From the sequence record PZ445524.1: 64,000 nt of DNA, one strand, 5' to 3'. The stretch comes from a phage. Below the pieces are notes generated by a model. That model was not told where the DNA came from and searched no databases. It saw only the letters and a list, made by a program, of their open reading frames with translations. Shown here in pieces: positions 3,772 through 28,133 of the stretch (positions are counted from its first letter, which is position 1; every line of letters starts with the position of its first letter). The translations under genes and the position numbers were made by a program.

Positions 3772-3852
3772 TCACTGGCGTCCGAAGACGCCTTTGGTTT
3801 TAAGATTGTTACGATAGAACTGCATCACATGTTCGTTATGGAAATTACTCAT
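3772..3852 (-). CDS. stp: Stp peptide (26 aa), activator of the host PrrC anticodon nuclease system
   Basis: hand-translated [26 protein letters not shown], which I recognise as T4 Stp; lies between ac-like genes and ndd as in T4. Confidence 0.8.
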
Positions 3853-4307
3853 TAATATGCCTGCAAAACAAATTTAAAGTTATCAGCCAACATACGGTTC
3901 ATTTCTTCAAGTGTTTGATACTCAGAATGATGATTACGAGTAAACGCCAAAGCTAACTGACCTTTTCCAAATCCCGTCGTCAGAGGTTTCATCTTAGAAG
4001 CAGGCAGATAAAACACTGTGTATGGAACATTGTTATTTGCAATAGTACGCGCAAGTTGAGACCGGCGTTGACGAATATGACTTAAAACCGCACTGAATCC
4101 TTGCTTAGAACGTTGATTACCTACATAAAATCGTGCAGACACACATGGATTACTAAATGGACGACCATCTAATTTACTTACTAAAAAGTAAAATCCAGGT
4201 TTAGATAAAATATCTTTATGCGGAGTTCCTAAAAACCATTCACCACCCTTGATTGTACCAATAACAGTTGCGCCTGCATTGTTCAGATCAGTAACAGTCA
4301 TGTATTT
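3852..4307 (-). CDS. ndd: Ndd nucleoid disruption protein
   Basis: 151 aa from [11 protein letters not shown] (track ORF extended 17 codons upstream); length and position match T4 ndd. Confidence 0.85.
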
Positions 4308-4370
4308 CATATTAATTTCCTCTAAATTATTTTCTACTCCAAGGCCGCATGAATACACACGGCCATTAAA

Positions 4371-4586
4371 TTAATCGTCGCAGTCGACGCTCAATTCCCA
4401 AAACTCTTCTACAGTATAAGTTTCAGTATCATTTTCAATACAGAAACGTTCATTACTGTTATTTGCTAAAGTAGCATTAACTGTCGGTTTCTCGCTAGTG
4501 CTCTTAAGAGGTGAAATACGAATTAACTGATCACCGTTATCTAAACAGAAAATTTCACCAACTTTTACATCTTTAAAACTTTTCAT
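4371..4586 (-). CDS. hypothetical protein (71 aa)
   Basis: ORF track. Confidence 0.55.
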   Translation of the reverse strand: MKSFKDVKVGEIFCLDNGDQLIRISPLKSTSEKPTVNATLANNSNERFCIENDTETYTVEEFWELSVDCDD

Positions 4587-4701
4587 AATTCACCTCAAGG
4601 AGTATAAAATCCAAATGCAGTTGTTGACCATCCCATCCAATACGGAAAATTTGCACCAATGTAAAACATGAGAATATAAAACCAACCGCTCAGCAAATTC
4701 A

Positions 4702-4920
4702 TCATTTTACACCATTCCAAATTGTTTCAACCACGGATTTTAAACCATTTTGATGAATATCAATTCCGACTACCGCCATCAAATAAATTCCAACTACAAC
4801 TGAACCTAAGGCAAAAATCAGCATGAAAATGAATAAAGCCGGAAAAATATTATCGAAAAACCATTCAATAAATGTAAAAGCACTGCGTTTACGCTTCATA
4901 TTTTCCTCACATAAATCCAA
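4702..4920 (-). CDS. small membrane protein (72 aa)
   Basis: ORF track; hydrophobic core. Confidence 0.5.
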   Translation of the reverse strand: MDLCEENMKRKRSAFTFIEWFFDNIFPALFIFMLIFALGSVVVGIYLMAVVGIDIHQNGLKSVVETIWNGVK

Positions 4921-5020
4921 AGTAAACGTTTAATACATCAATCATTAAAACGATTGGGAATATACTCAAAACTATTAGTATTATAACTACATTCCATATA
5001 GCTTTAATAATCTTTTTCAT
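4907..5020 (-). CDS. small membrane protein (37 aa)
   Basis: track ORF 4907..5116 runs through an early promoter; trimmed to ATG at 5020, which is preceded by GGAGG in the conserved leader. Confidence 0.45.
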   Translation of the reverse strand: MKKIIKAIWNVVIILIVLSIFPIVLMIDVLNVYFGFM

Positions 5021-5048
5021 TTTCTGTTCCTCCGTAGTTGATAGGGTA

Positions 5049-5078
5049 ATAGTACCACGGAAGAACAGTCTTGTAAAC
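5049..5078 (-). promoter_or_regulatory. early promoter with conserved leader
   Basis: GTTTAC-N18-TACTAT on minus strand, leader ...CAACTACGGAGGAACAGAAA-ATG. Confidence 0.55.
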
Positions 5079-5262
5079 AACTTTTTAAAAATATTCGTAA
5101 TAAATGTGAATACCAACTACTACCGCTGAAACCTGTGCAACCCACCACGCACAAGCAATAAGTACAGAATTCAAAATTTTCATAATAACCTCATCACAAA
5201 AGTAAATGTTAAACAAATTAATGGAATACTAATTAACCAAACAAAACACCACCATAATGAAC

Positions 5263-5535
5263 TCATAGTTCAATCTCAGCGATTTTCATTTCATTACTAT
5301 TAATAGCCGCTTTAAGACTATCTGAAAGAATTACATTCCAATGGTCATTCATATGACCACTAACTAAGCGTGTAATTTCTTCAGGAGTTGAAAAATAAGG
5401 CTGATCAGACTCCCAATGCGATAGTCCCAAGCGAGTATAAATCATACCTTCATCATCGCTAGAATATTCAACTGACACAAACTCATCAGTTATTTTATGT
5501 TTAGCGTAATAAAATTTAAATTTCATTTTACTCAA
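5263..5535 (-). CDS. hypothetical protein (90 aa)
   Basis: ORF track. Confidence 0.55.
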   Translation of the reverse strand: MSKMKFKFYYAKHKITDEFVSVEYSSDDEGMIYTRLGLSHWESDQPYFSTPEEITRLVSGHMNDHWNVILSDSLKAAINSNEMKIAEIEL

Positions 5536-5738
5536 TAATCCGCTAAAAGATCAACGATTGCATCACGAAGACACTTATTCGCAATACGTTTAAGAGCAAT
5601 TTCAGTTTCTGGAGCATTTTGAATAATCATTGAATTCAATTCAGCCTCAGCAAACTGAAGTTCTTTAACTAATTCAGCTTTATATTTTCCTTGCCCTTTC
5701 TTAGCTTTTGCTCGTTTTAATTCAGCTGTAGTAAACAT
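5532..5738 (-). CDS. hypothetical protein (68 aa)
   Basis: track ORF starts at TTG inside leader; trimmed to first ATG (MFTTAELKR) after GGAG. Confidence 0.55.
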   Translation of the reverse strand: MFTTAELKRAKAKKGQGKYKAELVKELQFAEAELNSMIIQNAPETEIALKRIANKCLRDAIVDLLADY

Positions 5739-5772
5739 TTTATTCTCCAAATCCGTATCAGTTGATAGTTGT

Positions 5773-5802
5773 ATATTACCACAGTCCTTGTGGTATGTAA
5801 AC
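5773..5802 (-). promoter_or_regulatory. early promoter with conserved leader
   Basis: GTTTAC-N18-TAATAT then ACAACTATCAACTGATACGGATTTGGAG-ATG. Confidence 0.55.
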
Positions 5803-5820
5803 CGTTTTGGGAAAAAATTT

Positions 5821-6378: not shown

Positions 6379-6462
6379 TTAAACTTTCCTTTATGTCGGA
6401 ATCACCGATATTCATATAATAAATCATAATTTCTCTTAAAACAAAAGGGCCGAAGCCCTTAT

Positions 6463-6657: not shown

Positions 6658-6689
6658 AATTTTCCTTAATATGATAAGGGCCGAAGCCC

Positions 6690-7628
6690 TTATTTAAATT
6701 GTTCAGTAACGTCTTCAACTACTTCGTATTGGCAGGTACGCATTTTAGCATCGTTGTAATCAATCGGAATTGATACTACATCACGCGGATGTACTTTAAC
6801 TTTTACAACTCGGCTAGTTGAACTGCCAAAGTGACGAATATAAGATTTAGAACACACATGCAGACCACGAGAACAAGTTTGTGTATCATCGTCATTCACA
6901 CGAGTACGTGGCATTTTAACTACTTTACCCGGACTGTTATCAAAGGTGTTTGAGTGACAGTCAAAGTAATTGCTGCGAACTACTTTCCAAGCATAGAAGT
7001 AACCATCTTCTGTAATTTCAATATCGTTTGCTACCAAGAAATCAAAGAGTCGAGATACCGCTTTTTGGCTTGGGTTTTCTAGCAGATTTTCCAAGAACGG
7101 AAAATAAAATTCAAAGTTTTCGCCTTTTTCCATCGAGTCAAGAATACGATCAACCAAACCAGACCGCAATTCAATATTTTGATAGAACAAGCTTCCACCT
7201 TCAATTCGAACATCGCCGGAAATATATTTTTCAACAGCACGACGAACATTAATTTTTTGTGCCGCTTCTTCCAACTTATCCGCTACAAGCAGATTAAGAA
7301 TTTCCTGGAAGTTTGAATGAGTATTAGGAGTTGCGTTATAAGTTACACCGTCAACAGTAATTGAAATGAATTTTTTAGATGCATTCCAAATAATGTCAGA
7401 TTTAGCAACTGGAGCAATAACTGCATCGCTATTAACTTTAACTGTAATATCACCGCTAATAGTAACTTTAGGGTGTTTAGCTTCTTCAGCATTTTTCAAA
7501 ACACGACGGATTGTGTCAACCGATACACCTTGCCAATCAGCCAATTCCTGTTGGGTATAATTACCACTTGAATACAGCTTAACAATTTCAGCTTGTTCGT
7601 TTTTGGTCAGGCATTTAATATTGTACAT
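6690..7628 (-). CDS. rIIB: rIIB protein
   Basis: 312 aa, T4 rIIB length; directly downstream of 725-aa rIIA. Confidence 0.9.
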   Translation of the reverse strand: MYNIKCLTKNEQAEIVKLYSSGNYTQQELADWQGVSVDTIRRVLKNAEEAKHPKVTISGDITVKVNSDAVIAPVAKSDIIWNASKKFISITVDGVTYNATPNTHSNFQEILNLLVADKLEEAAQKINVRRAVEKYISGDVRIEGGSLFYQNIELRSGLVDRILDSMEKGENFEFYFPFLENLLENPSQKAVSRLFDFLVANDIEITEDGYFYAWKVVRSNYFDCHSNTFDNSPGKVVKMPRTRVNDDDTQTCSRGLHVCSKSYIRHFGSSTSRVVKVKVHPRDVVSIPIDYNDAKMRTCQYEVVEDVTEQFK

Positions 7629-7639
7629 AATTTTCCTTA

Positions 7640-9817
7640 TTAGGCCGCAAGGGCCTTCATAGTTTTAGCGATTTGGGAAACTTCATCATCACTTAAAGAG
7701 TTGCGATAACCGATGAAGTCGGAAACAATACGGAATTTCTTGGTAAACTCAGCAACCATTTTATCACTGTTTTTTGAAGCATTATTTGATAATACATCAA
7801 AAAGATTAGTTACTGTCCAGATGTCATGACCGATGGTATCTTTTCCACCATTAAAATATACACCCTGTAATGAACTAACCATATTAGCAAGTCGTGTATA
7901 TTCTTCAGAAACTTCATCTACACTGAAGTACTTCATCATAAAATCTAACTCAGGATACTTGATAATTTTATCAATATATCGTTTAGCTGAACTTGAATAA
8001 CCTACATACTTATCATAATCTACATCATCAAAAGCATCTACATATAAATCACGCAAAGCTTCAAAAATACATTGGCACTGACCGAGTTCTTTTACCTTTT
8101 TCTGTAAAAGCGGACGAATAACATAAAATTCATTAATGCCAATAAGATTAGCCATACGAATCAAAATATTCATAGATGGATGACAAAGAGATGTAGTACC
8201 ATCCATAGAGAAAATATCAGAACGATGCATATACGCTACATAACCAGTAATTTCATCTGCTTCTGATGTGAGCGTAAATAATTCCTCTTTTTCCCAGCGC
8301 CCATCTTTAATTTCAAACTTAAATGCTGTAGCAGCTTTAGGACGAGGAGCTTTACTTTTAACTACCTTTGGAATATAGCTTTTAACTAAAGCTTCAATTT
8401 CTGACAAATAATGAATGTTAACTTCATCACTTTCAAACATCGCCATAATATCAGGAAGTAAATCAATCTGCGATTCTACTTCTGGATTAATAAACAGAAG
8501 ACGCTCATTGTGATGAATATTCAAAGTGTTATTAAATTCACTATCATCTAACGCATGCGCTAATCCACGAACAATATTAACACGATTTTTAATATTATCA
8601 ATAACGATATTAATTTTTGTTGTATTAATACCAAACAGACGATAACTTGATGCAACGGCTGAAGTTTCATGACTTTGCTTAATGCGCTTCAGTCGAGGGT
8701 CAAGATTTACTTCATACACAACTCCTGCATTGCATAACTTACTGTCAGGTTCAAACATGCTCTGCATCTTTTTATATGACAGATTTTTAGTCGTGAATTT
8801 GACTGAATTACTAATCATATAATCTCGAGCAGAATACCCCATCTTCATCAATTCACGATATGTGTGACGAGGAGATGTAGATTCTTTAAATCGTTTTACA
8901 TCTTCATTAAATGCTTTCTCACTGAGTTCTTTAACTCGTTCAATAATATTTTTACGAGTACGATCATCCAGTGAAAGAGCCTCGCGTGATGGAGCAATAT
9001 CCAATGAACCCATTGGAAACTTAATGTAATTCACTTCATTGCGAATGCTTAGCCAGTTACGGTCTCTAATAACACCATCGATAGGATAAACAATACCGCC
9101 GTAGATAGCATATAATCCACCACGATCAGGCCAGTATCTTTCTGGATTTACGCCGTAATAATCATCGAAATCCGGAAAATAATCAATTTCGCGGTCAAGA
9201 CCATTAATGATAGCCAAATCTTTGAATGGTCGCATGATATAAGAAACTTCATAAGCAAAGTTTCTAAAGTCTTTTTCTTCAACTGGAACTACGATTTCAA
9301 TACCAGTTTTATCATCTGGACCCATTTCTTTTACGAATGTAGGTTTAATTTGTGGACCATCGCCATCCATGTAAGCTACATAACCACGAATTTCACCTTT
9401 ATGATACGAAGTAATACTAAATGTATCAGTATAACTAAATGGAGATTTAGAACCTAAACCAAATCCGCCAATGAAATCGTTAGATTCAGCCTTAGATGAA
9501 CTGAAGTATGAATTATACAAACCAGGAGAATTATCATCACCCTGAATATCAAAATCACTCATACCCGGACCAAAATCTCGACAAACAAATCGTGGGTCTA
9601 AACGTCCAGGAACTTGTATGATAAATTTTTCAGGATTTCCATTAAGTGCATGGGCATCAATCATGTTGGTAATCAATTCACGGACTACTGCGCGAATCTT
9701 GTTTGTATACAAATCAGATGATAGAATTTTAAATACTTTAGGAGATGCTGTGATGCTAAATGCTTTTGATTTAGAACCATTACCAAGAATTGTTTCTTTT
9801 TCAGTGGTGATAATCAT
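7640..9817 (-). CDS. rIIA: rIIA protein
   Basis: 725 aa, T4 rIIA length; GHKL-ATPase-like N-terminus; followed by rIIB. Confidence 0.9.
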
Positions 9818-10056: not shown

Positions 10057-10086
10057 ATTATACCACATCCTTGTGGTAAAGTAAAC
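10057..10086 (-). promoter_or_regulatory. early promoter (GTTTAC-N18-TATAAT)
   Basis: minus strand GTTTACTTTACCACAAGGATGTGGTATAAT; -35 overlaps gene 60 stop. Confidence 0.55.
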
Positions 10087-10430
10087 TACTGGCTCATCCA
10101 TTCTTTACGAAGGTCAGCATTATCTCCCATGAGCATTTCAAAAAGCTCTTTCCAGTTCTCAGGAAGTTTAACAACATCATATACTGGATTTTGAATCATT
10201 TCACGATATTCAGATTTTTCCAAAGAGCCAAGTCCTTTAATATAACGGATGCTATGTTTAGGTAAAGCATCTTTAGCACTCTCATATTCAGCGACTGTAT
10301 AAAACCATTCTTGTTTTTTACCGACCTGAGCGATGATTACAGGAGTTTTGACAAAGCGAATTCTTCCTTGTTCAAACAGTTCTGGCCAATTACTAAAAAA
10401 TCCGAGCAAAGAAGGATAAATAGAACCTAA
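10086..10430 (-). CDS. 60: DNA topoisomerase II small subunit gp60, segment 2 (codons 47-160, after the bypass)
   Basis: frame resumes with UUA right after landing GGA: LGSIYPSLLGFFSNWPE...; track ORF 10086..10409 is this segment. Confidence 0.9.
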   Translation of the reverse strand, partial: LGSIYPSLLGFFSNWPELFEQGRIRFVKTPVIIAQVGKKQEWFYTVAEYESAKDALPKHSIRYIKGLGSLEKSEYREMIQNPVYDVVKLPENWKELFEMLMGDNADLRKEWMSQ

Positions 10431-10480
10431 TCCAATAATCTCTTAATTATGAGGTATTTCTATAGATAGCCCGAAGGCTA
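10431..10480 (-). other. 60: 50-nt untranslated coding gap of gene 60 (translational bypass element)
   Basis: take-off GGA 10483-10481, stop UAG 10480-10478, UAGCC-UUCG-GGCUA hairpin 10481-10466, landing GGA 10433-10431. Confidence 0.9.
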
Positions 10481-10618
10481 TCCATCGTGATCTGCGTCTG
10501 TCATAATAGCGACATTCGCATAGTTCATTGAAGAGGATTTAATAGAACGACGAACATTGTTCTGCAATTTATATTTTTTCATATCAACGCTAGAAGAATC
10601 AATTTTTACAAATTTCAT
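10481..10618 (-). CDS. 60: DNA topoisomerase II small subunit gp60, segment 1 (codons 1-46)
   Basis: MKFVKIDSSSVDMKKYKLQNNVRRSIKSSSMNYANVAIMTDADHDG then UAG; GyrB-C-terminal-like TDADxDG motif. Confidence 0.9.
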
Positions 10619-11417
10619 TATACACCTCATAGAACTTTTCATCAGGAATCCAACCGCGTTTAAATTCATTAAATGCTCGGCCGAATAATTTTGAATTCAC
10701 AGTTATATTATTAACTGATTTCCATTTAGCAACTCCCGTTCGTTTATAATGATCGGGGTCATATTTCGTGACGTACCATTCATATAAATTTGGTATTAAT
10801 TTTACAGCCTCTGGATTTGTCGCTGATTTATTATACCATGGTTTCGCTTTTTCAAGTTCAGCTGCTTTTGCAGTAGCAGCAACAGTATTTCCAATACCAA
10901 CTAATTTTTCAGCTTTAATGCGTGGATCATTAACATGAAGACGAAAAACTTCGCCTTTTTCATTTTTAAAGCATGTCATGCCTTTAATTCCAGGAAGCTT
11001 AACACCTTTATTAACACCGCACCATTCCTTTGGGTTAAATGATCCTTTAATTAATAAGGCGCATTTACCCGATTTAATACTTCTCATTAAAACTTTATCT
11101 TTCATAAAGTTTTTTGACCATTCAGATACTGCTCTTTGATGGTAAATTCTAGCAATTTCATATAATTTACTAGAACGTAAATATTTTTCAGTGTTTAACA
11201 TTCTATTCATCGCATATGCCATTTCACGATTACGATGAATTTTATATAGTAGAAAATGTGCTAAAAAGTGTTCACGAAAAGTCAGTTTCACCAAATTTTC
11301 TTTATCATCAGAACCTCCCATTGATCTTGGAAGGATATGATGAATTTCACCCTTAAATTTAGAAACGCGGGTTTTACCCCGCACTATTAAGTCATTATAG
11401 ATTTTTTCGTAATTCAC
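10599..11417 (-). CDS. mobA: HNH homing endonuclease MobA
   Basis: 272 aa; HNH motif EIHHILPRSMGGSDDKENLVKLTFREHFLAH; located between 39 and 60. Confidence 0.85.
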   Translation of the reverse strand: MNYEKIYNDLIVRGKTRVSKFKGEIHHILPRSMGGSDDKENLVKLTFREHFLAHFLLYKIHRNREMAYAMNRMLNTEKYLRSSKLYEIARIYHQRAVSEWSKNFMKDKVLMRSIKSGKCALLIKGSFNPKEWCGVNKGVKLPGIKGMTCFKNEKGEVFRLHVNDPRIKAEKLVGIGNTVAATAKAAELEKAKPWYNKSATNPEAVKLIPNLYEWYVTKYDPDHYKRTGVAKWKSVNNITVNSKLFGRAFNEFKRGWIPDEKFYEVYNEICKN

Positions 11418-13014: not shown

Positions 13015-13284
13015 TTATTTAAAACGAATAGTCGAATCCTTGAAGAATAGTCCAGAACATACTGTTCCTTCTACTTTCTGCCCAGTAGGTCCAATAGCAC
13101 GAAATCCAGTATGCTGGAAATCATTTTCAGAGCAACCGAACCAATTATATCCAGTGATTTCAATATTAGTAAAACCACTTGAAGACAAAACTTTGGTTGC
13201 ATTATCAGCATCAGTACATCCTATTAAAGACACTGCTAATACTAATGCTGCAATAGAACGATTAATATATTTCATAATTTTCAC
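13015..13284 (-). CDS. putative lipoprotein (89 aa)
   Basis: N-terminal signal peptide with lipobox LIGC. Confidence 0.6.
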   Translation of the reverse strand: MKIMKYINRSIAALVLAVSLIGCTDADNATKVLSSSGFTNIEITGYNWFGCSENDFQHTGFRAIGPTGQKVEGTVCSGLFFKDSTIRFK

Positions 13285-13652
13285 TTAAATTTAATGGCTT
13301 GAAGAAGACTAATAACTCTCAAGCGGCTTCTTTCATCTTTAACTGTAAAAGAAAGAGGGTCACCAGATTTCATAGTGATAGTGCATCCAAAATCAAAATT
13401 TTCGGGAACTTCTTCGAAGAAGTCAAATTCTTCAGCATAAATTAGAACATTACTCTGCATACTGTGAAGAATTTTTCCATTATTTCCAGACGCTGTACTA
13501 ATCATCGTAACATTATGACCTTTCATATCTTCAACGATAAATTCGCTTGTAGATATTACAGCATTAATAGAACCATTCCTATAAATAGCAGACATTAGAT
13601 ATTTCTTTTCTTCGCCTTCGCGAATACGATATTTCTTACCGATTTTAAACAT
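13281..13652 (-). CDS. hypothetical protein (123 aa)
   Basis: track ORF starts at GTG 13658; first ATG at 13652. Confidence 0.6.
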   Translation of the reverse strand: MFKIGKKYRIREGEEKKYLMSAIYRNGSINAVISTSEFIVEDMKGHNVTMISTASGNNGKILHSMQSNVLIYAEEFDFFEEVPENFDFGCTITMKSGDPLSFTVKDERSRLRVISLLQAIKFK

Positions 13653-13654
13653 AA

Positions 13655-13831
13655 TCACCCTTTAAGTAAGTCGTAAAAACCACCATTCACATGCTTAGGA
13701 GCAGAAGGCCGACGAGTAGACAAACGATGACATTTAGGGCAAACATCATTTTCTCGTTCAGAAATCTTTTTAATTTTTTCATATTCATGCCCGCAGTCTT
13801 CAGATTGGCATTTATAATCATACATTGGCAT
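13655..13831 (-). CDS. small zinc-ribbon protein (58 aa)
   Basis: hand-translated MPMYDYKCQSEDCGHEYEKIKKISERENDVCPKCHRLSTRRPSAPKHVNGGFYDLLKG; two CxxC pairs; below track cut-off. Confidence 0.55.
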   Translation of the reverse strand: MPMYDYKCQSEDCGHEYEKIKKISERENDVCPKCHRLSTRRPSAPKHVNGGFYDLLKG

Positions 13832-14481: not shown

Positions 14482-14751
14482 TTAATTGAACATTGGAGCG
14501 ATACGTTTCAGAAGAGTAGCAGCACCTTTGGCGAATTTTACATCATGAAAAACAGTTTCTTCTTCCGTTACAACACGAACTTTAATGTTTTCACAATCCC
14601 AATTTTTACGAACAATCTTCAAAAGCTGCAGTAAATCTTTACATTCAGCAATATCGATAACACATCCACGAGAATCTTCCATTATCGCACGATAACCGTA
14701 AGCCATACCATAATCGTTGAAAGATTGCTCGATGATAATTAAGTTTTCCAT
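14482..14751 (-). CDS. hypothetical protein (89 aa)
   Basis: track ORF starts at TTG in leader; trimmed to ATG (MENLIIIEQ) after GGAG. Confidence 0.55.
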   Translation of the reverse strand: MENLIIIEQSFNDYGMAYGYRAIMEDSRGCVIDIAECKDLLQLLKIVRKNWDCENIKVRVVTEEETVFHDVKFAKGAATLLKRIAPMFN

Positions 14752-14775
14752 TTTATTCTCCAAGTTGTTTTCTGT

Positions 14776-15422: not shown

Positions 15423-15965
15423 TTAATTTAAAATAGCTACCACCGCACTACGAGGTACTACGCTAAAATCACCTGCATGAACAACGTTCAGAAGTTCAAC
15501 ACCATCTTCAATCCATTGGTCTGTTACCCAACCACAGACCGAAATAAATGGGGTCTTAATAGCTACTGCATGAGTCAAAAGGTCAGTAGGATCAACTTCT
15601 TTGAAGAGGATAAGCTCTGCTTCAAAGACTATAGTTTTAATTACTTCATCATTATCTAAGCGATGTGCTCGAATCACGTAAGCTTTATTCTTATCATACC
15701 AGTTACTTTTTGAAAAGCTTTTAACCACAAACTCGCCTTCACCAAAAGCATTAGTCAATGCTTTATAACCCAAATTTAGTTCAGTAGTTTTAATTTCAGT
15801 TTCAACCAGTTTGTAGGTTTTGCCAATTTCGATGGTCCGAGCAGTCATAAATGTTTCCTTAATTTCTAATGGTTTAACAAGAGTGCCGTACATGCTTGCT
15901 ATATCCATATCAAACGGTTTATCTACAGGATTCGGTGTGTATTCAGGATTATAATTAAATTTCAT
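15423..15965 (-). CDS. hypothetical protein (180 aa), MotB-region paralog B
   Basis: ORF track; C-terminal block CGWVTDQWIEDGVELLNVVHAG. Confidence 0.6.
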   Translation of the reverse strand: MKFNYNPEYTPNPVDKPFDMDIASMYGTLVKPLEIKETFMTARTIEIGKTYKLVETEIKTTELNLGYKALTNAFGEGEFVVKSFSKSNWYDKNKAYVIRAHRLDNDEVIKTIVFEAELILFKEVDPTDLLTHAVAIKTPFISVCGWVTDQWIEDGVELLNVVHAGDFSVVPRSAVVAILN

Positions 15966-20216: not shown

Positions 20217-20819
20217 TTATAGATTAAATCCTTCAAAATCAAGAGTATAGATAGTGTATGTTGAATACTTTTTGTACTCATATCTATCTGCAATTCTAAA
20301 TACACTTCCAGCTGGTATCATTACTTCTTGTTCATCTGAAACTAATTCCATATTACGATAACGATGGCTATCCGGAAACTTAAAGTTTGGATTGTATTCT
20401 TTACAACGTAGAGCTTTTATAGCATACTCCTGGAAATTGAATACCATAGGAGCTTTGAATTCAAAAATAACTTGTGTGTTATACTCTAAACCGGAAGCAA
20501 AATGTAGAGCTATATTTTTATCATATGAAGCTGATACTACTTTATCAAATTTAATAATATCAATTCCTTGATTTAATACTTGTTTAGTCTCAGCTGGAAC
20601 ACCTCTCCAAAGAGGTTTATCGTTTGGAACCAAACGAGATTTGATTATTTCATTTAACCAAGTATGATCATCTGGCTTATTAGTAATACAATGAATTAAA
20701 AGTTCAATTTCAGATAAATTAAACCCTTCAGAAAGTAATTCTTCACGAATAGAAGCACGCACCGATGCATCCATTGATTTTATTTTAAAATCTTTTAGTT
20801 GCATTACTGAGTATTTCAT
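20217..20819 (-). CDS. modA: ADP-ribosyltransferase ModA
   Basis: 200 aa; ART-like R (LWRG), S.S and E.E (EQEVMIP) motifs. Confidence 0.8.
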   Translation of the reverse strand: MKYSVMQLKDFKIKSMDASVRASIREELLSEGFNLSEIELLIHCITNKPDDHTWLNEIIKSRLVPNDKPLWRGVPAETKQVLNQGIDIIKFDKVVSASYDKNIALHFASGLEYNTQVIFEFKAPMVFNFQEYAIKALRCKEYNPNFKFPDSHRYRNMELVSDEQEVMIPAGSVFRIADRYEYKKYSTYTIYTLDFEGFNL

Positions 20820-21439
20820 TCAACTACCTCAATATCATAAACTTTAAATGTTCCAAATGAATCGTGTAATTTTTCTTTTGAAATAGAAGTTATTCTATAC
20901 TTTCCAATTGGAATCATCCATTCTTGTTCACGCACAATCATCATTAAGTTATCAGTACGCTCTGAATCTAGCCCATCAGTATCTTCATACGTGTACTTGA
21001 ACTCAGTATTAGGAGAAGAAAGTATAATATCGCTGATATGGTCAGAATAATTAAAAGCTTTATCAGTTTTTAAGCGAAGTATTATTTTAGTAAAATATTC
21101 AGCATAAGAAAAAGAACATGCTGTGAGTAAACTAGTAGTAAATGAATCTACCCTGTTCGTTGAAAACACTTCTCCAACTTGTAAATCTTTAATAAGTTCT
21201 TCTGTTGATTTTGATATACCACGATATAACTGATAAGGCGATTTAGTTAAATGCTTTTTAATGATTTTATTCAATTGCCGATGAAGAGCTTCATTCTTTT
21301 TGGCTTCCATACATTGCCAAAGAACAGATTGCTCAAAGTCAGTAAATTTTTCACAGACTTTTTTATACATATCATATTGAAAATCAACGCTTTCAGCTTT
21401 TATAGATAACTGTTCAACATCTGCAAGATTAATAATCAT
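20816..21439 (-). CDS. modB: ADP-ribosyltransferase ModB
   Basis: 207 aa; paralog of ModA with LYRG and EQEWMIP motifs. Confidence 0.8.
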   Translation of the reverse strand: MIINLADVEQLSIKAESVDFQYDMYKKVCEKFTDFEQSVLWQCMEAKKNEALHRQLNKIIKKHLTKSPYQLYRGISKSTEELIKDLQVGEVFSTNRVDSFTTSLLTACSFSYAEYFTKIILRLKTDKAFNYSDHISDIILSSPNTEFKYTYEDTDGLDSERTDNLMMIVREQEWMIPIGKYRITSISKEKLHDSFGTFKVYDIEVVE

Positions 21440-23532: not shown

Positions 23533-23598
23533 AGCGCTCTCCTCTATAAGATAATTCTATTATACCATACTCATTTTGGAAAGTAAACCGTTTAAATG

Positions 23599-23622: not shown

Positions 23623-23630
23623 TTGAATTA

Positions 23631-23867: not shown

Positions 23868-23898
23868 AATAAACTCCTTTATTGTTTAATTACAGGTG

Positions 23899-23906
23899 TA
23901 TTTATA
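23899..23906 (-). promoter_or_regulatory. late promoter TATAAATA (gp55-dependent) for soc
   Basis: exact TATAAATA on minus strand about 30 nt upstream of soc ATG; overlaps stop codon of the HNH gene. Confidence 0.7.
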
Positions 23907-24753
23907 AACCATTTTCAAATCTCTTTATCATGTTTATATAATTTTCGTCAGGATAACCTAGGCTAACTGCTAGCTTTCTAAAATTGACATATTTAGGTTT
24001 GTTGTTATTAATCCATAATTCTCTAAGCTCTTTTTCATAATTCCATTTAAGTTGATTTCTGCGTGCAATTTTGCTTAAAGTTTTTCCTTTAGCTTTTAAA
24101 GCTTTTTCAGATGACTGTTTTAATTTTTGAATATTTAAAACTTCTTCTATAGATAAATTATTTTCCTTTGAATATCTTATGCAAAAATCTTTTACTATGG
24201 CTATTAGGCAATTTTTGTGAGTACCTAAAATTTCTGGATTATTTTCTTCAACTAAAATTCCCCAATACCTTCGATAGCGAGGCATATCCCTTGAAATCCA
24301 GTCATTATACCAAAAATCAAAGTTGGAATACATGAAAGATTTTCTTTTACGAAGAGTATCTTGGTTTATCCATTGCTCACGTTTATCAGCCCATAACTTA
24401 ATAGTAAAGTCTTTCTCTAAGTCAGAAAGCTTCTTAAATTGTGAGCTATTTACTGAGGTCATTCTCTGGAATGCATTCAGCAATCCAAATCTTCCAGTTG
24501 AACATAAGAGATAGTGAACATATATGTGTTGATATATTGGGAGATATACTCTATTCCAAGGATATATTTTAAAATCACTATACTCAGGAAATGCACATTT
24601 AGGAAGTATATGATGGGCTTCTGTTTTAGATTTAATGTGAGTGTTTAACTTATACTTATCTATAATTTTTAAATACTCATCTAAAAGTTCCCATTGCGGG
24701 AACTTTTCTTTAAGAGCAGATTTGAAATTAATATCCATTATCTTGACGTTCAA
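23902..24753 (-). CDS. free-standing HNH homing endonuclease (283 aa)
   Basis: HNH-like motif EAHHILPKCAFPEY similar to MobA/MobD-type motifs; basic C-terminal region; between soc and 56. Confidence 0.7.
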   Translation of the reverse strand: MNVKIMDINFKSALKEKFPQWELLDEYLKIIDKYKLNTHIKSKTEAHHILPKCAFPEYSDFKIYPWNRVYLPIYQHIYVHYLLCSTGRFGLLNAFQRMTSVNSSQFKKLSDLEKDFTIKLWADKREQWINQDTLRKRKSFMYSNFDFWYNDWISRDMPRYRRYWGILVEENNPEILGTHKNCLIAIVKDFCIRYSKENNLSIEEVLNIQKLKQSSEKALKAKGKTLSKIARRNQLKWNYEKELRELWINNNKPKYVNFRKLAVSLGYPDENYINMIKRFENGL

Positions 24754-25246
24754 AATTATGTTTGTTCTTCAAATAATAAAGTTTAAAGATTTCTTCAGCC
24801 GACATTCCAAGAGCAATAAATTTATTCATGAAAAAGTGAAATTGGTCAATCAGTTCAAATTTAATTTCAAGCTGATCTTCGGGAGATAAATCTTGAATTT
24901 TCTTGGATTGCATTTCAGAATAACGTTTCTTCCAAGGTTTCCATACAGCAGAAGCTTCTTTTTCACCATTACTCATACCACCAAGAGAAGTATATAGCTC
25001 GCGAGTTTCGTCTGCGATATAATCGTCTTGGTTTCGCAGCCAAGCAAGAACTTCTCCTGCAGTTTCAAGTGAATCGGGATGACGATTTGTTTCTGGTTTA
25101 TCATTAGCCAAACGAATCTGTAAATGCCGCTGCATATCAAGCATAACCTGCAATGGGTCTTTTTCATCACCGAGAATATCCCAGTATTCATTTTGAGCTT
25201 TATCAACACCTTCGATCAAATGAGCACATTCATTAAAGTGAGCCAT
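24728..25246 (-). CDS. 56: dCTP pyrophosphatase (dCTPase)
   Basis: 172 aa from MAHFNECAHLIEG; MazG-like; track N-terminal extension rejected because it runs through the RBS of an opposite-strand gene. Confidence 0.85.
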   Translation of the reverse strand: MAHFNECAHLIEGVDKAQNEYWDILGDEKDPLQVMLDMQRHLQIRLANDKPETNRHPDSLETAGEVLAWLRNQDDYIADETRELYTSLGGMSNGEKEASAVWKPWKKRYSEMQSKKIQDLSPEDQLEIKFELIDQFHFFMNKFIALGMSAEEIFKLYYLKNKHNFERQDNGY

Positions 25247-25317
25247 TATTTTTCCTTTCAATTCATGGGTTAGTAGATTAATTATACAATAAATATATAA
25301 AGCAATAAGGAGGACAT

Positions 25318-25518
25318 ATGGTACAAAAATTAATGGCACTTGTTGATGCCATAAAAGGTAATAAGAAACGTATAGCTTTTACTATTTCTGCTATGGTAGG
25401 AATTTTACTCTGGAACTTTATTTTATCACCTGTTGCAATTGCACATGGTATTAATATTCCAGTAGTTACTCTTGATACATTCGTAGATTTAGCATTTGCT
25501 TTAGTTGGGTTAATTTAA
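25318..25518 (+). CDS. small hydrophobic protein (66 aa), plus strand
   Basis: perfect SD AAGGAGG at 25307-25313, 4 nt before ATG; intergenic between 56 and 61; two hydrophobic segments. Confidence 0.6.
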   Translation: MVQKLMALVDAIKGNKKRIAFTISAMVGILLWNFILSPVAIAHGINIPVVTLDTFVDLAFALVGLI

Positions 25519-26543
25519 ATCTTAGCATATTTAGATAGCCGCATTTTAGCCATCAACCCCTGGGCAATATTATTTTTCATATATTCCATAATTTGTTCAG
25601 GGGTTGCACCTTCCTTTCTAATCATATCATTAACATCTTTTGATTTCCAGGGAGATTTATCCCAAAACATAACCCTTTCTCCTGCATCAACTAATTTAGT
25701 CATCCGTTTAATAGTGTCAGGGTGACGAGGTTCATTATCTAAAACCCACACTCGTCTATCTTTAAATGGAACAACTTCTAGGTCTAATTGACCACCCGTA
25801 ATAGCTATACCATTTTCAATAAAAAGTGAATCTATAGGTCCTTCTAGAACATATACATCACCATCTTTAACTCGTTCGACTCCATAGATTTTTGTTGCTT
25901 CAGGATAAGCTTTGATGGTGATATATTTTTGAGGAGCATCTTTCTTTAATGCACGTCCTTGAAAAGACTCAGCTTTTCCATTAGCATTATAAATTGGAAT
26001 AACAAGACGAGGCTCAGAAATTTCCTTTTTATATGTTCCCGGTGCTATGCTATTAACCAATTTAGGCCATTCGGTTGTAAACCAAAGATATTTCCATTTA
26101 TCCTTTGGAATACAACGAGCTTTTACATATTTTATAATTGGATGGTCTTCCGCCAGTTTATCTAATCTAACACATGACGGAAGAGATTTAATTATTTTCT
26201 TCTCAGGTTGTTTAGGAAGTTCTTTAGGTTTTTCTACTGGACGACTTTTACCTTTTTCTTTTCTTATTTCAAAGATATACTCACGATATAAATCAGGTTC
26301 AAACTCCTTTAAATATATTCCGATTGGTGCATGATAGTTACAGTTATAACAATGAATATTTCCTTCATTATTATCACCATAATACCATCCACGGGCTTTA
26401 TTTTGGTCGGTTTTTGAATCTCCACACACTGGGCATCTAAACCGTAATTTAAAAGTTGAACTATTATTTACTTGTGTGAATTTAGGTAAATGAGCTAATG
26501 CACGGTATGCAAACTCATTATCAATCCAAGGTATTGATGACAT
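25515..26543 (-). CDS. 61: DNA primase
   Basis: 342 aa; N-terminal zinc ribbon CPVCGDS...CYNC; T4 gp61 length. Confidence 0.95.
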   Translation of the reverse strand: MSSIPWIDNEFAYRALAHLPKFTQVNNSSTFKLRFRCPVCGDSKTDQNKARGWYYGDNNEGNIHCYNCNYHAPIGIYLKEFEPDLYREYIFEIRKEKGKSRPVEKPKELPKQPEKKIIKSLPSCVRLDKLAEDHPIIKYVKARCIPKDKWKYLWFTTEWPKLVNSIAPGTYKKEISEPRLVIPIYNANGKAESFQGRALKKDAPQKYITIKAYPEATKIYGVERVKDGDVYVLEGPIDSLFIENGIAITGGQLDLEVVPFKDRRVWVLDNEPRHPDTIKRMTKLVDAGERVMFWDKSPWKSKDVNDMIRKEGATPEQIMEYMKNNIAQGLMAKMRLSKYAKI

Positions 26544-26545
26544 TT

Positions 26546-26710
26546 TTACTCTTCTTTTTCTTTAGATTCCTCTTTTTTCTTTTTAGGAATCTGTTCAGGA
26601 CCTTTATTTACTACAGCGCCTGATGTTGTTCCAGTAGAGATATTTTCAGGACTACCACCTGAATCTCCAGCGACCATATCTTCTTTGATAAATTCTTTAT
26701 ATGTTTTCAT
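26546..26710 (-). CDS. small charged protein (54 aa)
   Basis: hand-translated MKTYKEFIKEDMVAGDSGGSPENIS...KKKKEESKEKEE; GAGG SD upstream. Confidence 0.5.
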   Translation of the reverse strand: MKTYKEFIKEDMVAGDSGGSPENISTGTTSGAVVNKGPEQIPKKKKEESKEKEE

Positions 26711-26711
26711 A

Positions 26712-27338
26712 TTAACCTCTATTCATAAAAGCATTAAAAATTTGGTCATCAATAGAAACATTTACTTTAGACTGTTTTTCGGATGGTAATTCATATCCAC
26801 ATATTACAATTTTGTGATCAATATCAAAATACACAGAAGCAATATGATTAATGATATTTTCAGTGAAGTCTAAATCAACATCAATGTCTTTTTGACCAAA
26901 GCCCAAAGGATAAATAATGCGAGTAATTCGATTATCTTTAACAAAGATTCCACCGACATACTCTGTGCTGCGTTTAAAGTCTACACGCCGACGAAATGAA
27001 AAATATTCAGGCTCTTTATGAGCTCGGCTCATAGGGCACAACGAATAACTAGAATAAGAAATGTCAAATCCTACGCCTTCAATATGAACTAAATTGTCAT
27101 GATTAAACCAATTATAATCATATGCCAAGTCCATTAGATTGTCATATGTGAAAGGCACCGGATTAACATCATTGGTCACAAGCATATAATTAGCAACTGC
27201 TATAATTTCATTATTTTTAACGAATACAAACCGTGATTGATGCGAATGGCCTGGACCTGCGTTTTCACGATTAATGATATAACACTGGGCACCTTTATAT
27301 TTGTACGTGTCTTTACACTTGTGCATTTGATAAAGCAT
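26712..27338 (-). CDS. hypothetical protein (208 aa)
   Basis: ORF track. Confidence 0.6.
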   Translation of the reverse strand: MLYQMHKCKDTYKYKGAQCYIINRENAGPGHSHQSRFVFVKNNEIIAVANYMLVTNDVNPVPFTYDNLMDLAYDYNWFNHDNLVHIEGVGFDISYSSYSLCPMSRAHKEPEYFSFRRRVDFKRSTEYVGGIFVKDNRITRIIYPLGFGQKDIDVDLDFTENIINHIASVYFDIDHKIVICGYELPSEKQSKVNVSIDDQIFNAFMNRG

Positions 27339-27631
27339 TATTCACCTACCACTTCAGCGATGATATTTTTATTATTAAAGTTTTTATCGCAATACAGAAC
27401 ATAATTATACTGCATTACACCACCAGACTTAAGCTGTTTTTGCACTTCAGCTTTCATTTCAGGACGATCGCGCTCAACGATATTCATAATATCTGCTTCA
27501 ATTTGAGTTTCAACCTCAGTCTGATCCGCAGTCATAGACCATTCGCACAAATCTTTATCATAACCTGCCATAGCAGGCTGAGCAGCACAAGAAGCTAAAG
27601 CAAAAATTGTAGCAAAGATAAATTTTTTCAT
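27338..27631 (-). CDS. sp: Spackle-like periplasmic protein (superinfection exclusion / lysozyme inhibitor)
   Basis: 97 aa with N-terminal signal peptide MKKFIFATIFALASCAAQPAMA; position between 61 and 41. Confidence 0.7.
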   Translation of the reverse strand: MKKFIFATIFALASCAAQPAMAGYDKDLCEWSMTADQTEVETQIEADIMNIVERDRPEMKAEVQKQLKSGGVMQYNYVLYCDKNFNNKNIIAEVVGE

Positions 27632-27691
27632 GATAATCTCCTCAGTAGTTTATGTTTATATAGTATCTCAATTTCCAACAAAAGTAAACAG

Positions 27692-27991
27692 TTATTTTAA
27701 AACTTCTGCATAATCACATGTTACAAACTGTTTCTCTAGCTTAACGATCTTACGAAAATACCTTTTACACTGACGAATCTGTCGCTTCGTAGGACGTACA
27801 GCAAACTTAATAAATTCCACTCGACCAAATGGAGGACTTTCTTCTGCTGGAATATCTAACACCAATTCCCACGTATCGGCAATAAGTGCTTTGAATTGCG
27901 TATTTTTCCTGACGCTATACGGAGTAGGTTTAAATAAAACAATATGCATATTATCCTCGGCAATCCACTTCACATACTTTCTTTTCATCAA
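27692..27991 (-). CDS. hypothetical protein (99 aa)
   Basis: ORF track. Confidence 0.55.
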   Translation of the reverse strand: MMKRKYVKWIAEDNMHIVLFKPTPYSVRKNTQFKALIADTWELVLDIPAEESPPFGRVEFIKFAVRPTKRQIRQCKRYFRKIVKLEKQFVTCDYAEVLK

Positions 27992-28133
27992 TGAAAGCTT
28001 TAACTAATGCTTTATTAACTTCAGCATACTGAGTAGTAGCCCATTGAACGTCATCTTTCATCATTGTGGTTTCTTTAGTAAACATGCTTTCATTCTTAAA
28101 CCACCCCATAAAAACTACCTTTACCAATTCCAT
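27951..28133 (-). CDS. dmd: Dmd antitoxin (inhibitor of host RnlA/LsoA RNase toxins)
   Basis: 60 aa MELVKVVFMGWFKNESMF..., recognised from memory; immediately upstream-adjacent to 41. Confidence 0.75.
   Translation of the reverse strand: MELVKVVFMGWFKNESMFTKETTMMKDDVQWATTQYAEVNKALVKAFIDEKKVCEVDCRG

What the first reader, a model, noticed from the sequence alone, without database searches (positions are those of the whole stretch)
3772..28133. Several host-defence countermeasure and exclusion genes in one early block
Recognisable here are stp (PrrC activator peptide), modA/modB ADP-ribosyltransferases, dmd (antitoxin against RnlA/LsoA), sp and imm (superinfection exclusion) and rIIA/rIIB. These are interleaved with many unassigned small ORFs, for example 27692..27991 and 26712..27338 next to dmd and sp. 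Those neighbours are the most plausible places to look for further anti-defence functions.
Basis: partly seen in the sequence, partly recalled or inferred. Interest (0 to 1): 0.35.

Follow-up and report, generated by a model that had tools for sequence, protein, structure and literature searches.

The report
Known T4 anti-defence genes, early region

Summary
The window is a Tequatrovirus (T4-like) genome. Interval 3772-28133 is its standard early region: about 52 genes, all but one on the minus strand. stp, modA, modB, rIIA, rIIB, sp and dmd are present at 96-100% protein identity to T4. imm is real but lies at 33428-33679, outside the stated range.

The two "unassigned" example ORFs are T4 61.4 and 61.2. 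Gene 61.4 is tifA, which inhibits the ToxN toxin. Gene 61.2 is adfA, the anti-DarT1 factor, which has its own Pfam family. Both were characterised in 2022-2024, and the dmd-tifA-adfA neighbourhood was already called an "anti-TA island".

About 26 ORFs in the block remain unassigned. All belong to known phage families of unknown function, and none matched a defence, anti-defence or solved-structure family here.

One side lead came up. Gene 61.1 is the only uncharacterised gene of the island. It starts with a near-copy of the T4 capsid targeting sequence and a prohead-protease cleavage motif. The rest resembles the "N-fist" of the mature major capsid protein gp23. It is deeply conserved, so it is probably a head-targeted peptide rather than an arms-race gene.

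The parts
3772..3852 (-). stp: 26-aa peptide that activates the host PrrC anticodon nuclease. From established knowledge, it acts by inhibiting the EcoprrI restriction enzyme.
   Evidence: 26/26 identical to T4 Stp. Pfam PF08133 Nuclease_act at 75 bits, and phrog_6763.
6690..7628 (-). rIIB: with rIIA, protects against RexAB abortive infection in lambda lysogens.
   Evidence: 99.7% to T4 RIIB with one substitution. phrog_609. Transposon insertions in T4 rIIA and rIIB are depleted in the presence of RexAB.
7640..9817 (-). rIIA
   Evidence: 99.0% to T4 RIIA. phrog_612 matches over the full length.
20217..20819 (-). modA: ADP-ribosyltransferase acting on the RNA polymerase alpha subunit.
   Evidence: 98.5% to T4 ModA. 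phrog_832. R72 and an E-Q-E motif are visible in the sequence. The Bas37 ModA orthologue is labelled in a Mokosh type I screen.
20816..21439 (-). modB: ADP-ribosyltransferase.
   Evidence: 96.1% to T4 ModB. phrog_832. R73-G74 and an E-Q-E motif are present.
26546..26710 (-). 61.1: 54-aa ORF, the only uncharacterised gene of the island. It reads as a CTS-like decapeptide MKTYKEFIKE, then a segment like the gp23 N-fist, then a Lys-rich tail.
   Evidence: 94% to T4 61.1. Found in 1398 phage records. 8/10 identical to the IPII/IPIII capsid targeting sequence. Similar to gp23 residues 57-96. dN/dS of the core is 0.04-0.11. Non-essential in T4.
26712..27338 (-). adfA (T4 61.2): anti-DarT factor A.
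   Evidence: 99.0% to T4 gp61.2. Pfam PF23813 AdfA at 454 bits over the full length. His165 aligns with RB69 position 164, the neutralising allele. Found in 487 phage records.
27338..27631 (-). sp (spackle): periplasmic superinfection-exclusion protein. From established knowledge it inhibits the gp5 tail lysozyme.
   Evidence: 99.0% to T4 Sp. Pfam PF25676. Matches PDB 6X6O and 7CN6.
27692..27949 (-). tifA (T4 61.4): RNA-binding protein that inhibits the ToxN endoribonuclease.
   Evidence: 97.6% to T4 TifA, differing by N12S and I83V. K55, R56 and R59 are conserved and position 41 is Phe. Pfam DUF7279. Found in 642 phage records.
27951..28133 (-). dmd: antitoxin against the RnlA and LsoA RNases.
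   Evidence: 96.7% to T4 Dmd. Pfam PF17587 at 151 bits. Matches PDB 5HY3 chain B, "Antitoxin Dmd".
28163..28191 (-). Early-type promoter-like site (TTTACA, 17 nt, TATAGT, with TG) upstream of dmd-tifA.
   Evidence: Consensus scan scoring 10/12 and the sequence itself. This agrees with the published early promoter that drives dmd-tifA.
33428..33679 (-). imm: superinfection immunity gene, named in the finding but OUTSIDE its interval.
   Evidence: 98.8% to T4 Imm. Pfam PF14373.
5263..5750 (-). Two small ORFs (87 and 68 aa from their ATGs) between ndd.6 and denB that T4 lacks.
   Evidence: No T4 protein maps here. They fall in phrog_2390 and phrog_4535, both of unknown function. The 87-aa ORF is annotated hypothetical in PYPS2T.
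13281..13658 (-). 123-aa ORF between 39.1 and 39.2 that T4 lacks.
   Evidence: phrog_622, unknown function. No Pfam, NCBIfam or PDB hit, and only a marginal PADLOC hit (PDC-M62A, E 0.0029, 14.7 bits).
14482..14763 (-). 89-aa ORF between cef and motB that T4 lacks.
   Evidence: phrog_3720, unknown function.
15423..15965 (-). 180-aa ORF in place of T4 motB.1, with a MotB-like C-terminal motif.
   Evidence: Pfam motB matches residues 142-175. phrog_2333. 50% identity over 32 aa to the window's MotB.

Best explanation
Interval 3772-28133 is the conserved early (pre-replicative) gene region of a T4-like phage of genus Tequatrovirus. It is transcribed leftward and has T4 gene order from stp to dmd. 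It mixes replication and nucleotide-metabolism genes (60/39, dexA, dda, 56, 61), host-takeover genes (ndd, motB, srd, srh, mrh, modA, modB, goF, cef), two homing endonucleases, the capsid gene soc, and a set of known counter-defence or exclusion genes.

How the defence-related genes work (from the literature, not tested here):
- Stp inhibits the EcoprrI restriction enzyme and so unleashes the PrrC anticodon nuclease.
- RIIA and RIIB block RexAB abortive infection.
- Spackle blocks the tail lysozyme of superinfecting phage.
- Dmd binds and neutralises the RnlA and LsoA RNases.
- TifA (gene 61.4) binds RNA and ToxN and traps the toxin in an inactive ribonucleoprotein.
- AdfA (gene 61.2) binds the DNA ADP-ribosyltransferase DarT1.

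dmd and tifA form one operon behind an early promoter. Together with sp, adfA and 61.1 they fill the variable gap between the conserved genes 41 and 61. This gap is the published "anti-TA island".
For: - Synteny and 96-100% protein identity to T4 for every named gene.
- Curated family matches for stp, dmd, sp, adfA and tifA (DUF7279).
- PDB matches for Dmd and Spackle.
- Functional residues are kept. AdfA has His at the RB69-164 position. TifA keeps K55, R56 and R59. ModA and ModB keep the Arg and ExE motifs.
- An early promoter-like site lies directly upstream of dmd, and the tifA ATG follows the dmd stop codon after one base.
- Literature: tifA is 61.4 and inhibits ToxN; deleting it lowers plating about 100-fold on chromosomal toxIN; 61.2 is adfA; the region was proposed as an anti-TA island. 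AdfA R164H binds DarT1. Transposon sequencing confirms rIIA/B against RexAB and dmd against RnlAB.
- The gene 41-61 gap is variable across genera: 5 genes here and in T4, 11 in RB69, 8 in WG01, 7 in ZX14.
Against: - No function was tested in this particular phage. All mechanisms are transferred from T4 or RB69 by near-identity.
- T4 adfA deletion has no phenotype on DarTG1, and 61.2 is non-essential and unchanged in the screens I read. The natural target of T4-type AdfA is therefore still unknown.
- TifA here has Phe41, the allele that inhibits plasmid-borne ToxN only weakly.
- modA and modB are only loosely "countermeasures".
- imm is not in the interval.
Confidence: 0.93

Rival explanations
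1. The whole 24-kb block is a dedicated anti-defence or exclusion island, so most of its about 26 unassigned ORFs are anti-defence genes.
For: - Seven genes with documented counter-defence or exclusion roles lie in it.
- Nearly all small ORFs checked are non-essential in T4 on E. coli K-12. That is expected for accessory genes.
- New T-even anti-defence genes are still being found among such ORFs.
Against: - About half of the coding length is replication, nucleotide metabolism, transcription takeover, homing endonucleases and soc.
- Known anti-defence genes are scattered over other early regions too. In this window, imm is at 33.4 kb, nrdC.1 at 53.0 kb and nrdC.5 at 55.5 kb.
- Among the unassigned ORFs tested, only marginal matches appeared: one PADLOC hit for the 123-aa ORF (E 0.0029) and PDB hits at E above 0.1. 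None matched NCBIfam or an informative Pfam family.
- In the parts of the T4 screen tables I read (M9 medium, genes mrh.2 onward; strain CFE299, genes up to alc), no unassigned ORF of this block changed significantly.
Confidence: 0.1
2. Gene 61.1, the remaining uncharacterised island gene, is not an arms-race anti-defence gene. It is a prohead-targeted peptide: its first 10 residues act as a capsid targeting sequence, the gp21 protease cuts after Glu10, and the product is a free copy of the gp23* N-fist with a Lys-rich tail that stays in or on the head.
For: - MKTYKEFIKE is 8/10 identical to the capsid targeting sequence MKTYQEFIAE of IPII and IPIII.
- It is the only such ORF in all six frames of the window.
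- Glu10 aligns with gp23 Glu65, the maturation cleavage site. Residues 11-36 align with gp23* 66-91, the N-fist.
- A PDB-wide profile search returns only T4 gp23, at E 3.9e-5.
- A [LIFM]-x-E motif sits just before the conserved core in every family member I inspected, short and long forms alike.
- Purifying selection is strong, with dN/dS of 0.04-0.11.
- It occurs in 1398 phage records, including Acinetobacter and Aeromonas T4-like phages, and lies next to the primase gene in the six genomes whose neighbourhood I examined, from six genera.
Against: - There is no virion proteomics or cleavage evidence.
- No late-promoter TATAAATA lies upstream.
- By my count from the sequence, the mature T4-type peptide has about 9 acidic and 7 basic residues, so it is not basic like the internal proteins.
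- No 61.1 chain is present in any solved T4 capsid entry.
- The gene is non-essential.
- The short N-terminal match alone is weak (E 6e-4 in a pairwise comparison).
Confidence: 0.35
3. The flagged small ORFs are chance ORFs or decaying remnants without function.
For: - Many are very short (26-90 aa).
- The mechanical ORF list holds 269 ORFs in this range, most of them spurious.
Against: - The ORFs I count as genes map one-to-one onto annotated T4 or PYPS2T genes.
- They belong to PHROG families.
- They are conserved in hundreds of phage genomes.
- tifA and adfA have experimental phenotypes.
- The 61.1 core has dN/dS of about 0.1 or less.
Confidence: 0.03

Closest known systems
Phage T4 dmd-tifA-sp-adfA-61.1 locus, the "anti-TA island" (Srikant, Guegler and Laub 2022; LeRoux et al. 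2022)
   Same: The gene order and the flanking genes 41 and 61 are the same. There is an early promoter upstream of dmd. Protein identity to T4 is 94-99%. AdfA carries the His allele, and TifA keeps the basic cluster and Phe41.
   Different: Only 2-3 amino-acid substitutions per protein. The exact TifA sequence is found in phage vB_Eco_T-01 and the exact AdfA sequence in Yersinia phage fPS-90.
T4 early region rIIB-rIIA-60-39 ... 56-61 (NC_000866)
   Same: Collinear. Most proteins are 95-100% identical, and the gene 60 50-nt translational bypass is included.
   Different: The differences are those of a mosaic genome.
- dam, segF and segA are absent, and an HNH endonuclease occupies the segF position.
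- There is an extra ac paralogue and four or five extra small ORFs.
- motB.1 is replaced by a 180-aa MotB-like ORF.
- soc (47%), 56 (78%), mrh (79%) and 39.2 (70%) are divergent.
- All of these variants also occur in other Tequatroviruses such as PYPS2T and Kha5h.
RB69 (Mosigvirus) 41-61 island
   Same: dmd, tifA, sp, adfA and 61.1 are present in the same order.
   Different: RB69 has 11 genes in the gap, including imm and imm.1 between sp and tifA. Its AdfA carries Arg164, the non-neutralising allele, and its TifA lacks the C-terminal 15 residues.
[quoted passage not shown] This is the comparator for gene 61.1 only.
   Same: The N-terminal decapeptide is of the MKTYQEFIAE type and ends in I-x-E, the gp21 protease motif.
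   Different: - 61.1 is much smaller.
- Its mature part is not basic; instead it resembles the gp23* N-fist.
- It is highly conserved, whereas the internal proteins are polymorphic.
- It lies in an early operon next to the primase gene.
- Packaging has not been shown.

Membership tests
Dmd (PF17587) | About 60-aa protein matching the Dmd profile and the solved Dmd structure over its full length | tested here: met
   151 bits over residues 1-60 of 60. Matches PDB 5HY3_B at E 3.7e-36. 58/60 identical to T4 Dmd.
Dmd (PF17587) | Neutralises the RnlA and LsoA toxins | not testable with these tools
   Inferred from 96.7% identity. In T4, transposon sequencing shows dmd is needed when RnlAB is present.
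TifA (T4 gp61.4; Pfam DUF7279, PF23945) | Small protein encoded immediately downstream of dmd in the same early operon | tested here: met
   The ATG at 27949 lies one base after the dmd stop codon, and the promoter-like site is at 28191-28163. This matches the published locus.
TifA (T4 gp61.4; Pfam DUF7279, PF23945) | Central cluster of basic residues needed for RNA binding (K55, R56, R59) | tested here: met
   The RPTKRQIRQ segment is invariant across the window, T4 and RB69. A K55A R56A R59A mutant was used in PMC10853763.
TifA (T4 gp61.4; Pfam DUF7279, PF23945) | Inhibits ToxN | not testable with these tools
   83/85 identical to T4 TifA. Position 41 is Phe, the weaker T4-type allele.
AdfA (PF23813) | Full-length match to the AdfA profile above the curated cut-off | tested here: met
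   454.5 bits against a cut-off of 27, covering residues 1-208.
AdfA (PF23813) | His at the position equivalent to RB69 residue 164, the DarT1-neutralising allele | tested here: met
   The window has His165 where RB69 has Arg164. The meaning of the alleles comes from PMC11257639.
AdfA (PF23813) | Binds or neutralises DarT1 during infection | not testable with these tools
   In T4 itself, deleting adfA has no phenotype on DarTG1.
Stp (PF08133, anticodon nuclease activator) | 26-aa peptide matching the profile over its full length | tested here: met
   75.3 bits over residues 1-26 of 26. Identical to T4 Stp.
ModA/ModB ADP-ribosyltransferases | Catalytic Arg and Glu-x-Glu motif of R-S-E type transferases | tested here: met
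   ModA has W71-R72-G73 and E-Q-E. ModB has Y72-R73-G74 and E-Q-E, read directly from the translations. Both hit phrog_832. There is no Pfam hit.
Spackle (PF25676) | Full-length profile match, signal peptide, and a match to solved Spackle structures | tested here: met
   151 bits. Matches PDB 6X6O at E 8e-62. The N-terminus MKKFIFATIFALASCAAQPAMA is visible.
Imm (PF14373) | Lies within the finding's interval | tested here: not met
   The gene is at 33431-33679, 5.3 kb beyond the interval end.
Internal head proteins carrying a capsid targeting sequence (considered for 61.1) | N-terminal decapeptide of the MKTYQEFIAE type ending in (L/I)-x-E | tested here: met
   MKTYKEFIKE is 8/10 identical and ends in I-K-E. 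The motif is conserved in 13 of 14 close homologues.
Internal head proteins carrying a capsid targeting sequence (considered for 61.1) | Present in proheads or virions and cleaved by gp21 | not testable with these tools
   I found no proteomic data, and no 61.1 chain is present in PDB capsid entries.
Internal head proteins carrying a capsid targeting sequence (considered for 61.1) | Basic mature protein with polymorphic sequence | tested here: not met
   By my count from the sequence, the mature T4-type peptide has about 9 acidic and 7 basic residues. The family is highly conserved, with dN/dS of 0.04-0.11.

The most novel reading that the evidence does not exclude
Gene 61.1 (26546-26710) encodes a previously unrecognised head-targeted peptide. 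A capsid-targeting decapeptide would be removed by the gp21 prohead protease after Glu10. That would release a free paralogue of the gp23* N-fist (gp23 residues 66-91) with a Lys-rich tail.

The peptide could fill N-fist or Soc-site positions that gp24 vertices or the portal leave empty. Alternatively it could be carried in the head and injected like IPI*. In more distant Straboviridae the same module sits at the C-terminus of a protein of about 150 aa, after the same protease motif.
Probability: 0.35. Interest if true: 0.5.

Novelty: already known. Interest (0 to 1): 0.15.

Why it matters
The finding itself adds nothing new. tifA, adfA, dmd, sp, stp and rIIA/B are textbook or recently published, and the "anti-TA island" concept is in print. 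Its practical value concerns annotation: public records, including RefSeq entries for T4, PYPS2T and Kha5h, still label 61.4 and 61.2 as "hypothetical protein". A reader working from the sequence therefore rediscovers them.

The one item worth a specialist's attention is gene 61.1. If it really is a gp21-processed free N-fist, it would add a component to the heavily studied T4 head. It would also explain why a tiny non-essential ORF is conserved across Straboviridae.

Tried and rejected
- **Family scans of the extra ORFs.** I ran Pfam, NCBIfam and PADLOC on the ORFs that T4 lacks and on a sample of T4-type unassigned ORFs. Nothing informative came up beyond self-named T4 families, DUFs, a MotB-like C-terminal motif in the 180-aa ORF, and one marginal PADLOC hit for the 123-aa ORF.
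- **PDB sequence searches.** AdfA, TifA, the 123-aa ORF and Mrh gave no hits, and the 180-aa ORF and MotB.2 gave only hits at E above 0.1. AdfA and TifA therefore have no solved relative detectable by sequence.
- **The 123-aa ORF as a GoF paralogue.** PHROGs hinted at this, but pairwise BLASTP against the window's GoF is not significant. Rejected.
- **Scan of viral contigs with a gp61 alignment.** Only 7 loci came back, too few for an island survey. I used four annotated genomes from different genera instead.
- **Literature searches on T4 sub-gene names** (motB.2, dda.1, mrh.2 and others). The results were swamped by unrelated numeric matches. The 2003 T4 genome review is not held.
- **RNA genes.** Rfam and tRNA scans of the block found nothing.
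- **61.1 as an arms-race anti-defence gene.** I consider this unlikely because of its breadth and its strong purifying selection.
- **HIDEN-SEQ conditional tables.** I read only parts of them (M9 medium and strain CFE299). The CFE331 and Mokosh tables for T4 were not read.

Full report
**What the window is.** A megablast of 3772-28133 against 50,697 phage records hits 930 of them. The best are Tequatroviruses (CJY920, PYPS2T, Kha5h, T4) at 94-96% identity over 89-99% of the query. I fetched the T4 reference annotation and ran its proteins against the window with tblastn. The interval is collinear with T4 from stp, across the rIIB/rIIA end of the T4 record, to dmd. Every gene is on the minus strand except one 66-aa ORF at 25318-25518.

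**Check of the observation.** The named genes map as follows.

| Gene | Window position | Identity to T4 |
|---|---|---|
| stp | 3775-3852 | 26/26 |
| rIIB | 6693-7628 | 99.7% |
| rIIA | 7643-9817 | 99.0% |
| modA | 20220-20819 | 98.5% |
| modB | 20819-21439 | 96.1% |
| sp | 27341-27631 | 99.0% |
| dmd | 27954-28133 | 96.7% |

- Curated Pfam models confirm stp, dmd and sp. PHROGs confirm rIIA, rIIB, modA and modB.
- Dmd and Spackle match solved structures 5HY3 and 6X6O.
- ModA and ModB keep the Arg and Glu-x-Glu catalytic motifs.
- imm is real (98.8% identity, PF14373) but lies at 33431-33679, between genes 42 and 43 as in T4. That is 5.3 kb outside the stated interval. In RB69, imm and imm.1 do sit between sp and 61.4.
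- ORF 27692..27991 is the longest mechanical ORF, starting at a TTG inside dmd. The gene proper starts at the ATG at 27949.

**The two "unassigned" ORFs.** ORF 27692-27949 is T4 61.4 (83/85 identical). ORF 26712-27338 is T4 61.2 (206/208 identical).

*61.4 is tifA.*
- Srikant, Guegler and Laub (eLife 2022, PMC9391042) renamed 61.4 tifA. T4 escapes toxIN by amplifying dmd-tifA.
- TifA must be translated, it co-precipitates with ToxN, and tifA mutants plate about 100-fold worse on chromosomal toxIN.
- Guegler et al. (NAR 2023, PMC10853763) showed that TifA binds RNA and ToxN and traps ToxN in an inactive ribonucleoprotein. A K55A R56A R59A mutant was used, and position 41 tunes potency.
- The window's TifA keeps K55, R56 and R59 and has Phe41, the weaker T4-type allele.

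*61.2 is adfA.*
- Pfam now has an AdfA family. The window protein scores 454 bits over its full length.
- Its His165 aligns with RB69 Arg164, the position where Arg-to-His creates DarT1 binding.
- T4 adfA deletion nevertheless has no phenotype on DarTG1, because AdfN (gene 30.3) does that job.

Both genes are widespread: 642 phage records hold TifA and 487 hold AdfA. A 2026 genome note on another Tequatrovirus already lists TifA and Dmd among the anti-defence genes it detected with DefenseFinder.

**Local anatomy.**
- A T4 early-type promoter-like site (TTTACA, 17 nt, TATAGT) begins one base after the gene 41 stop codon, at 28191-28163.
- dmd, tifA, sp, adfA, 61.1 and gene 61 follow. They are tightly packed apart from one 60-bp gap between tifA and sp.
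- The gap between the conserved genes 41 and 61 is variable across genera. It holds 5 genes here and in T4, 11 in RB69, 8 in WG01 (Dhakavirus), and 7 in ZX14 (Kanagawavirus). ZX14 has no annotated dmd, sp or adfA. That is the behaviour expected of an accessory island.

**The rest of the block.**
- By my count there are about 52 genes. Seven have documented counter-defence or exclusion roles: stp, rIIA, rIIB, sp, dmd, tifA and adfA.
- About 19 act in replication, nucleotide metabolism, host takeover, capsid structure or homing. About 26 are unassigned.
- Differences from T4:
  - an extra ac paralogue (3609-3764);
  - two ORFs between ndd.6 and denB (5263-5750);
  - a 123-aa ORF (13281-13658) and an 89-aa ORF (14482-14763);
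  - a 180-aa MotB-like ORF replacing motB.1 (15423-15965);
  - an HNH endonuclease in place of segF (23902-24753);
  - no dam and no segA.
- All the extra ORFs fall in PHROGs of unknown function, and most are annotated as hypothetical proteins in the related phage PYPS2T.
- Apart from the marginal matches listed under things tried, none of the ORFs tested matched PADLOC, NCBIfam or PDB entries.
- In the HIDEN-SEQ transposon data for T4 (bioRxiv 10.1101/2025.11.20.689424), 39.1, 39.2, 60.1, 61.1, 61.2, 61.4, ac, cef, dda.1, denB.1 and dexA.1 are non-essential on E. coli K-12. In the parts I read, the block's small ORFs show no significant change in M9 medium or on clinical strain CFE299.
- The same preprint confirms rIIA/B against RexAB and dmd against RnlAB. 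It identifies nrdC.1 as an anti-Septu factor, and its Mokosh type I figure legend labels a ModA orthologue (bas37_0131).
- nrdC.1 (52981-53220), nrdC.5 (55541-56563, anti-Dsr1) and imm are in this window but outside the interval. Anti-defence genes are therefore dispersed over the early regions and not confined to this block.

**Side lead: gene 61.1.** This is the only island gene without a function, so I looked further.
- *Conservation.* It is far more conserved than its neighbours. It occurs in 1398 phage records, including Klebsiella, Acinetobacter and Aeromonas T4-like phages. Identity is 65-70% across four genera. The core has dN/dS of 0.04-0.11 with saturated synonymous sites. For comparison, TifA between the window and RB69 has about 3.5-fold higher dN.
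- *N-terminus.* It starts MKTYKEFIKE, which is 8/10 identical to the capsid targeting sequence MKTYQEFIAE of T4 IPII and IPIII (the sequence is given in PMC8442874). It ends in I-x-E. From established knowledge, (L/I)-x-E is the cleavage motif of the gp21 prohead protease. No other ORF in any frame of the 64-kb window has such a start.
- *Similarity to gp23.* BLASTP aligns 61.1 residues 2-38 with gp23 residues 57-93 (41% identity, no gaps, E 7e-8). This puts Glu10 on Glu65, the gp23 maturation site. The PDB chain lengths of 521 and 456 residues confirm removal of 65 residues. A family profile gives hhalign probability 91.6%. In a search of all PDB sequences it returns only T4 gp23 (E 3.9e-5).
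- *The aligned segment is the N-fist.* The N-fist is gp23* residues 66-91. It contacts four subunits and helps form the Soc binding site. It is disordered in the five gp23* subunits whose N-fists face the portal (PMC7136217, PMC9546572, PMC9958956). Unassigned densities under gp24* have been reported.
- *Wider family.* A profile search of 1.84 billion representative proteins finds 50 relatives. Short forms resemble the T4 type. Long forms of about 125-250 aa carry the same module after a conserved domain of about 100 aa. Every member I inspected has [LIFM]-x-E just before the core. One member reads IVE|AEISGD, almost the gp23 site LTE|AEIGGD.
- *Reading.* I infer that 61.1 is a gp21 substrate that releases a free N-fist-like peptide. 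Against this:
  - no late promoter lies upstream;
  - the mature peptide is not basic;
  - there is no proteomic evidence;
  - the gene is non-essential.
  No paper in the held library prints this N-terminus. UniRef and some genome records call homologues "major capsid (domain-containing) protein", so the similarity has been picked up automatically but apparently not interpreted.

**Verdict.**
- The novelty class is "already known", and interest is low.
- The 61.1 lead is the only part that might repay experimental work.

Noticed in passing
window 26546-26710 (-): Gene 61.1 combines a near-copy of the T4 capsid targeting sequence (MKTYKEFIKE) with a segment homologous to gp23 residues 57-96, which spans the maturation cleavage site and the N-fist. 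It is conserved across Straboviridae under strong purifying selection. Long homologues of about 150 aa carry the same module at their C-terminus.
   Followed up: yes
window about 10431-10480 (-), within gene 60 (10086-10618): The 50-nt translational bypass ("hop") element of T4 gene 60 is present and identical to T4: GGA-UAG take-off, hairpin, and GGA landing site. Just upstream, 10599-11417 is one uninterrupted 272-aa HNH (MobA-type) ORF, which the T4 RefSeq record annotates as two pieces, 60.1 and mobA.
   Followed up: partly
window 23902-25518: The mobile-element and methylase content differs from T4. segF is replaced by a 278-aa HNH-type homing endonuclease (23902-24753). The dam methyltransferase gene is absent between 56 and 61, and no Dam homologue was found anywhere in the window. 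A 66-aa plus-strand ORF that looks hydrophobic (25318-25518, phrog_2024, like RB69ORF029w) sits there instead. segA is also absent between uvsX and b-gt.
   Followed up: partly
window 3609-3764 (-): A second, divergent copy (42% identity) of the small hydrophobic-looking protein Ac (acridine resistance) lies between ac and stp. T4 has only one copy.
   Followed up: no
whole window; 23899-23906 (-): The T4 late-promoter core TATAAATA occurs only twice in 64 kb, against about 11 expected from shuffles. The single minus-strand copy sits just upstream of soc, the one gene in the block that I recall being expressed late.
   Followed up: no
window 33428-33679, 51723-52205, 52981-53220, 55541-56563 (-): Other defence-related genes lie outside the finding's interval: imm, pin (annotated in T4 as an inhibitor of host Lon protease), nrdC.1 (100% identical to T4; reported as an anti-Septu factor in a 2025 preprint) and nrdC.5 (96.5%; needed against Dsr1 in the eLife 2022 paper).
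   Followed up: partly
window 7643-9817 (-), rIIA residues 511-515: Five consecutive residues differ from T4 (RNYLR to EELFT) in an otherwise 99% identical protein. This looks like a pair of compensating frameshifts, or a sequence difference in the reference.
   Followed up: no
window 13015-13284 (-): The 39.1 ORF is longer here than the 65-aa T4 annotation. It starts MKYINRSIAALVLAVSLIGC, which looks like a lipoprotein signal peptide with a lipobox cysteine.
   Followed up: no
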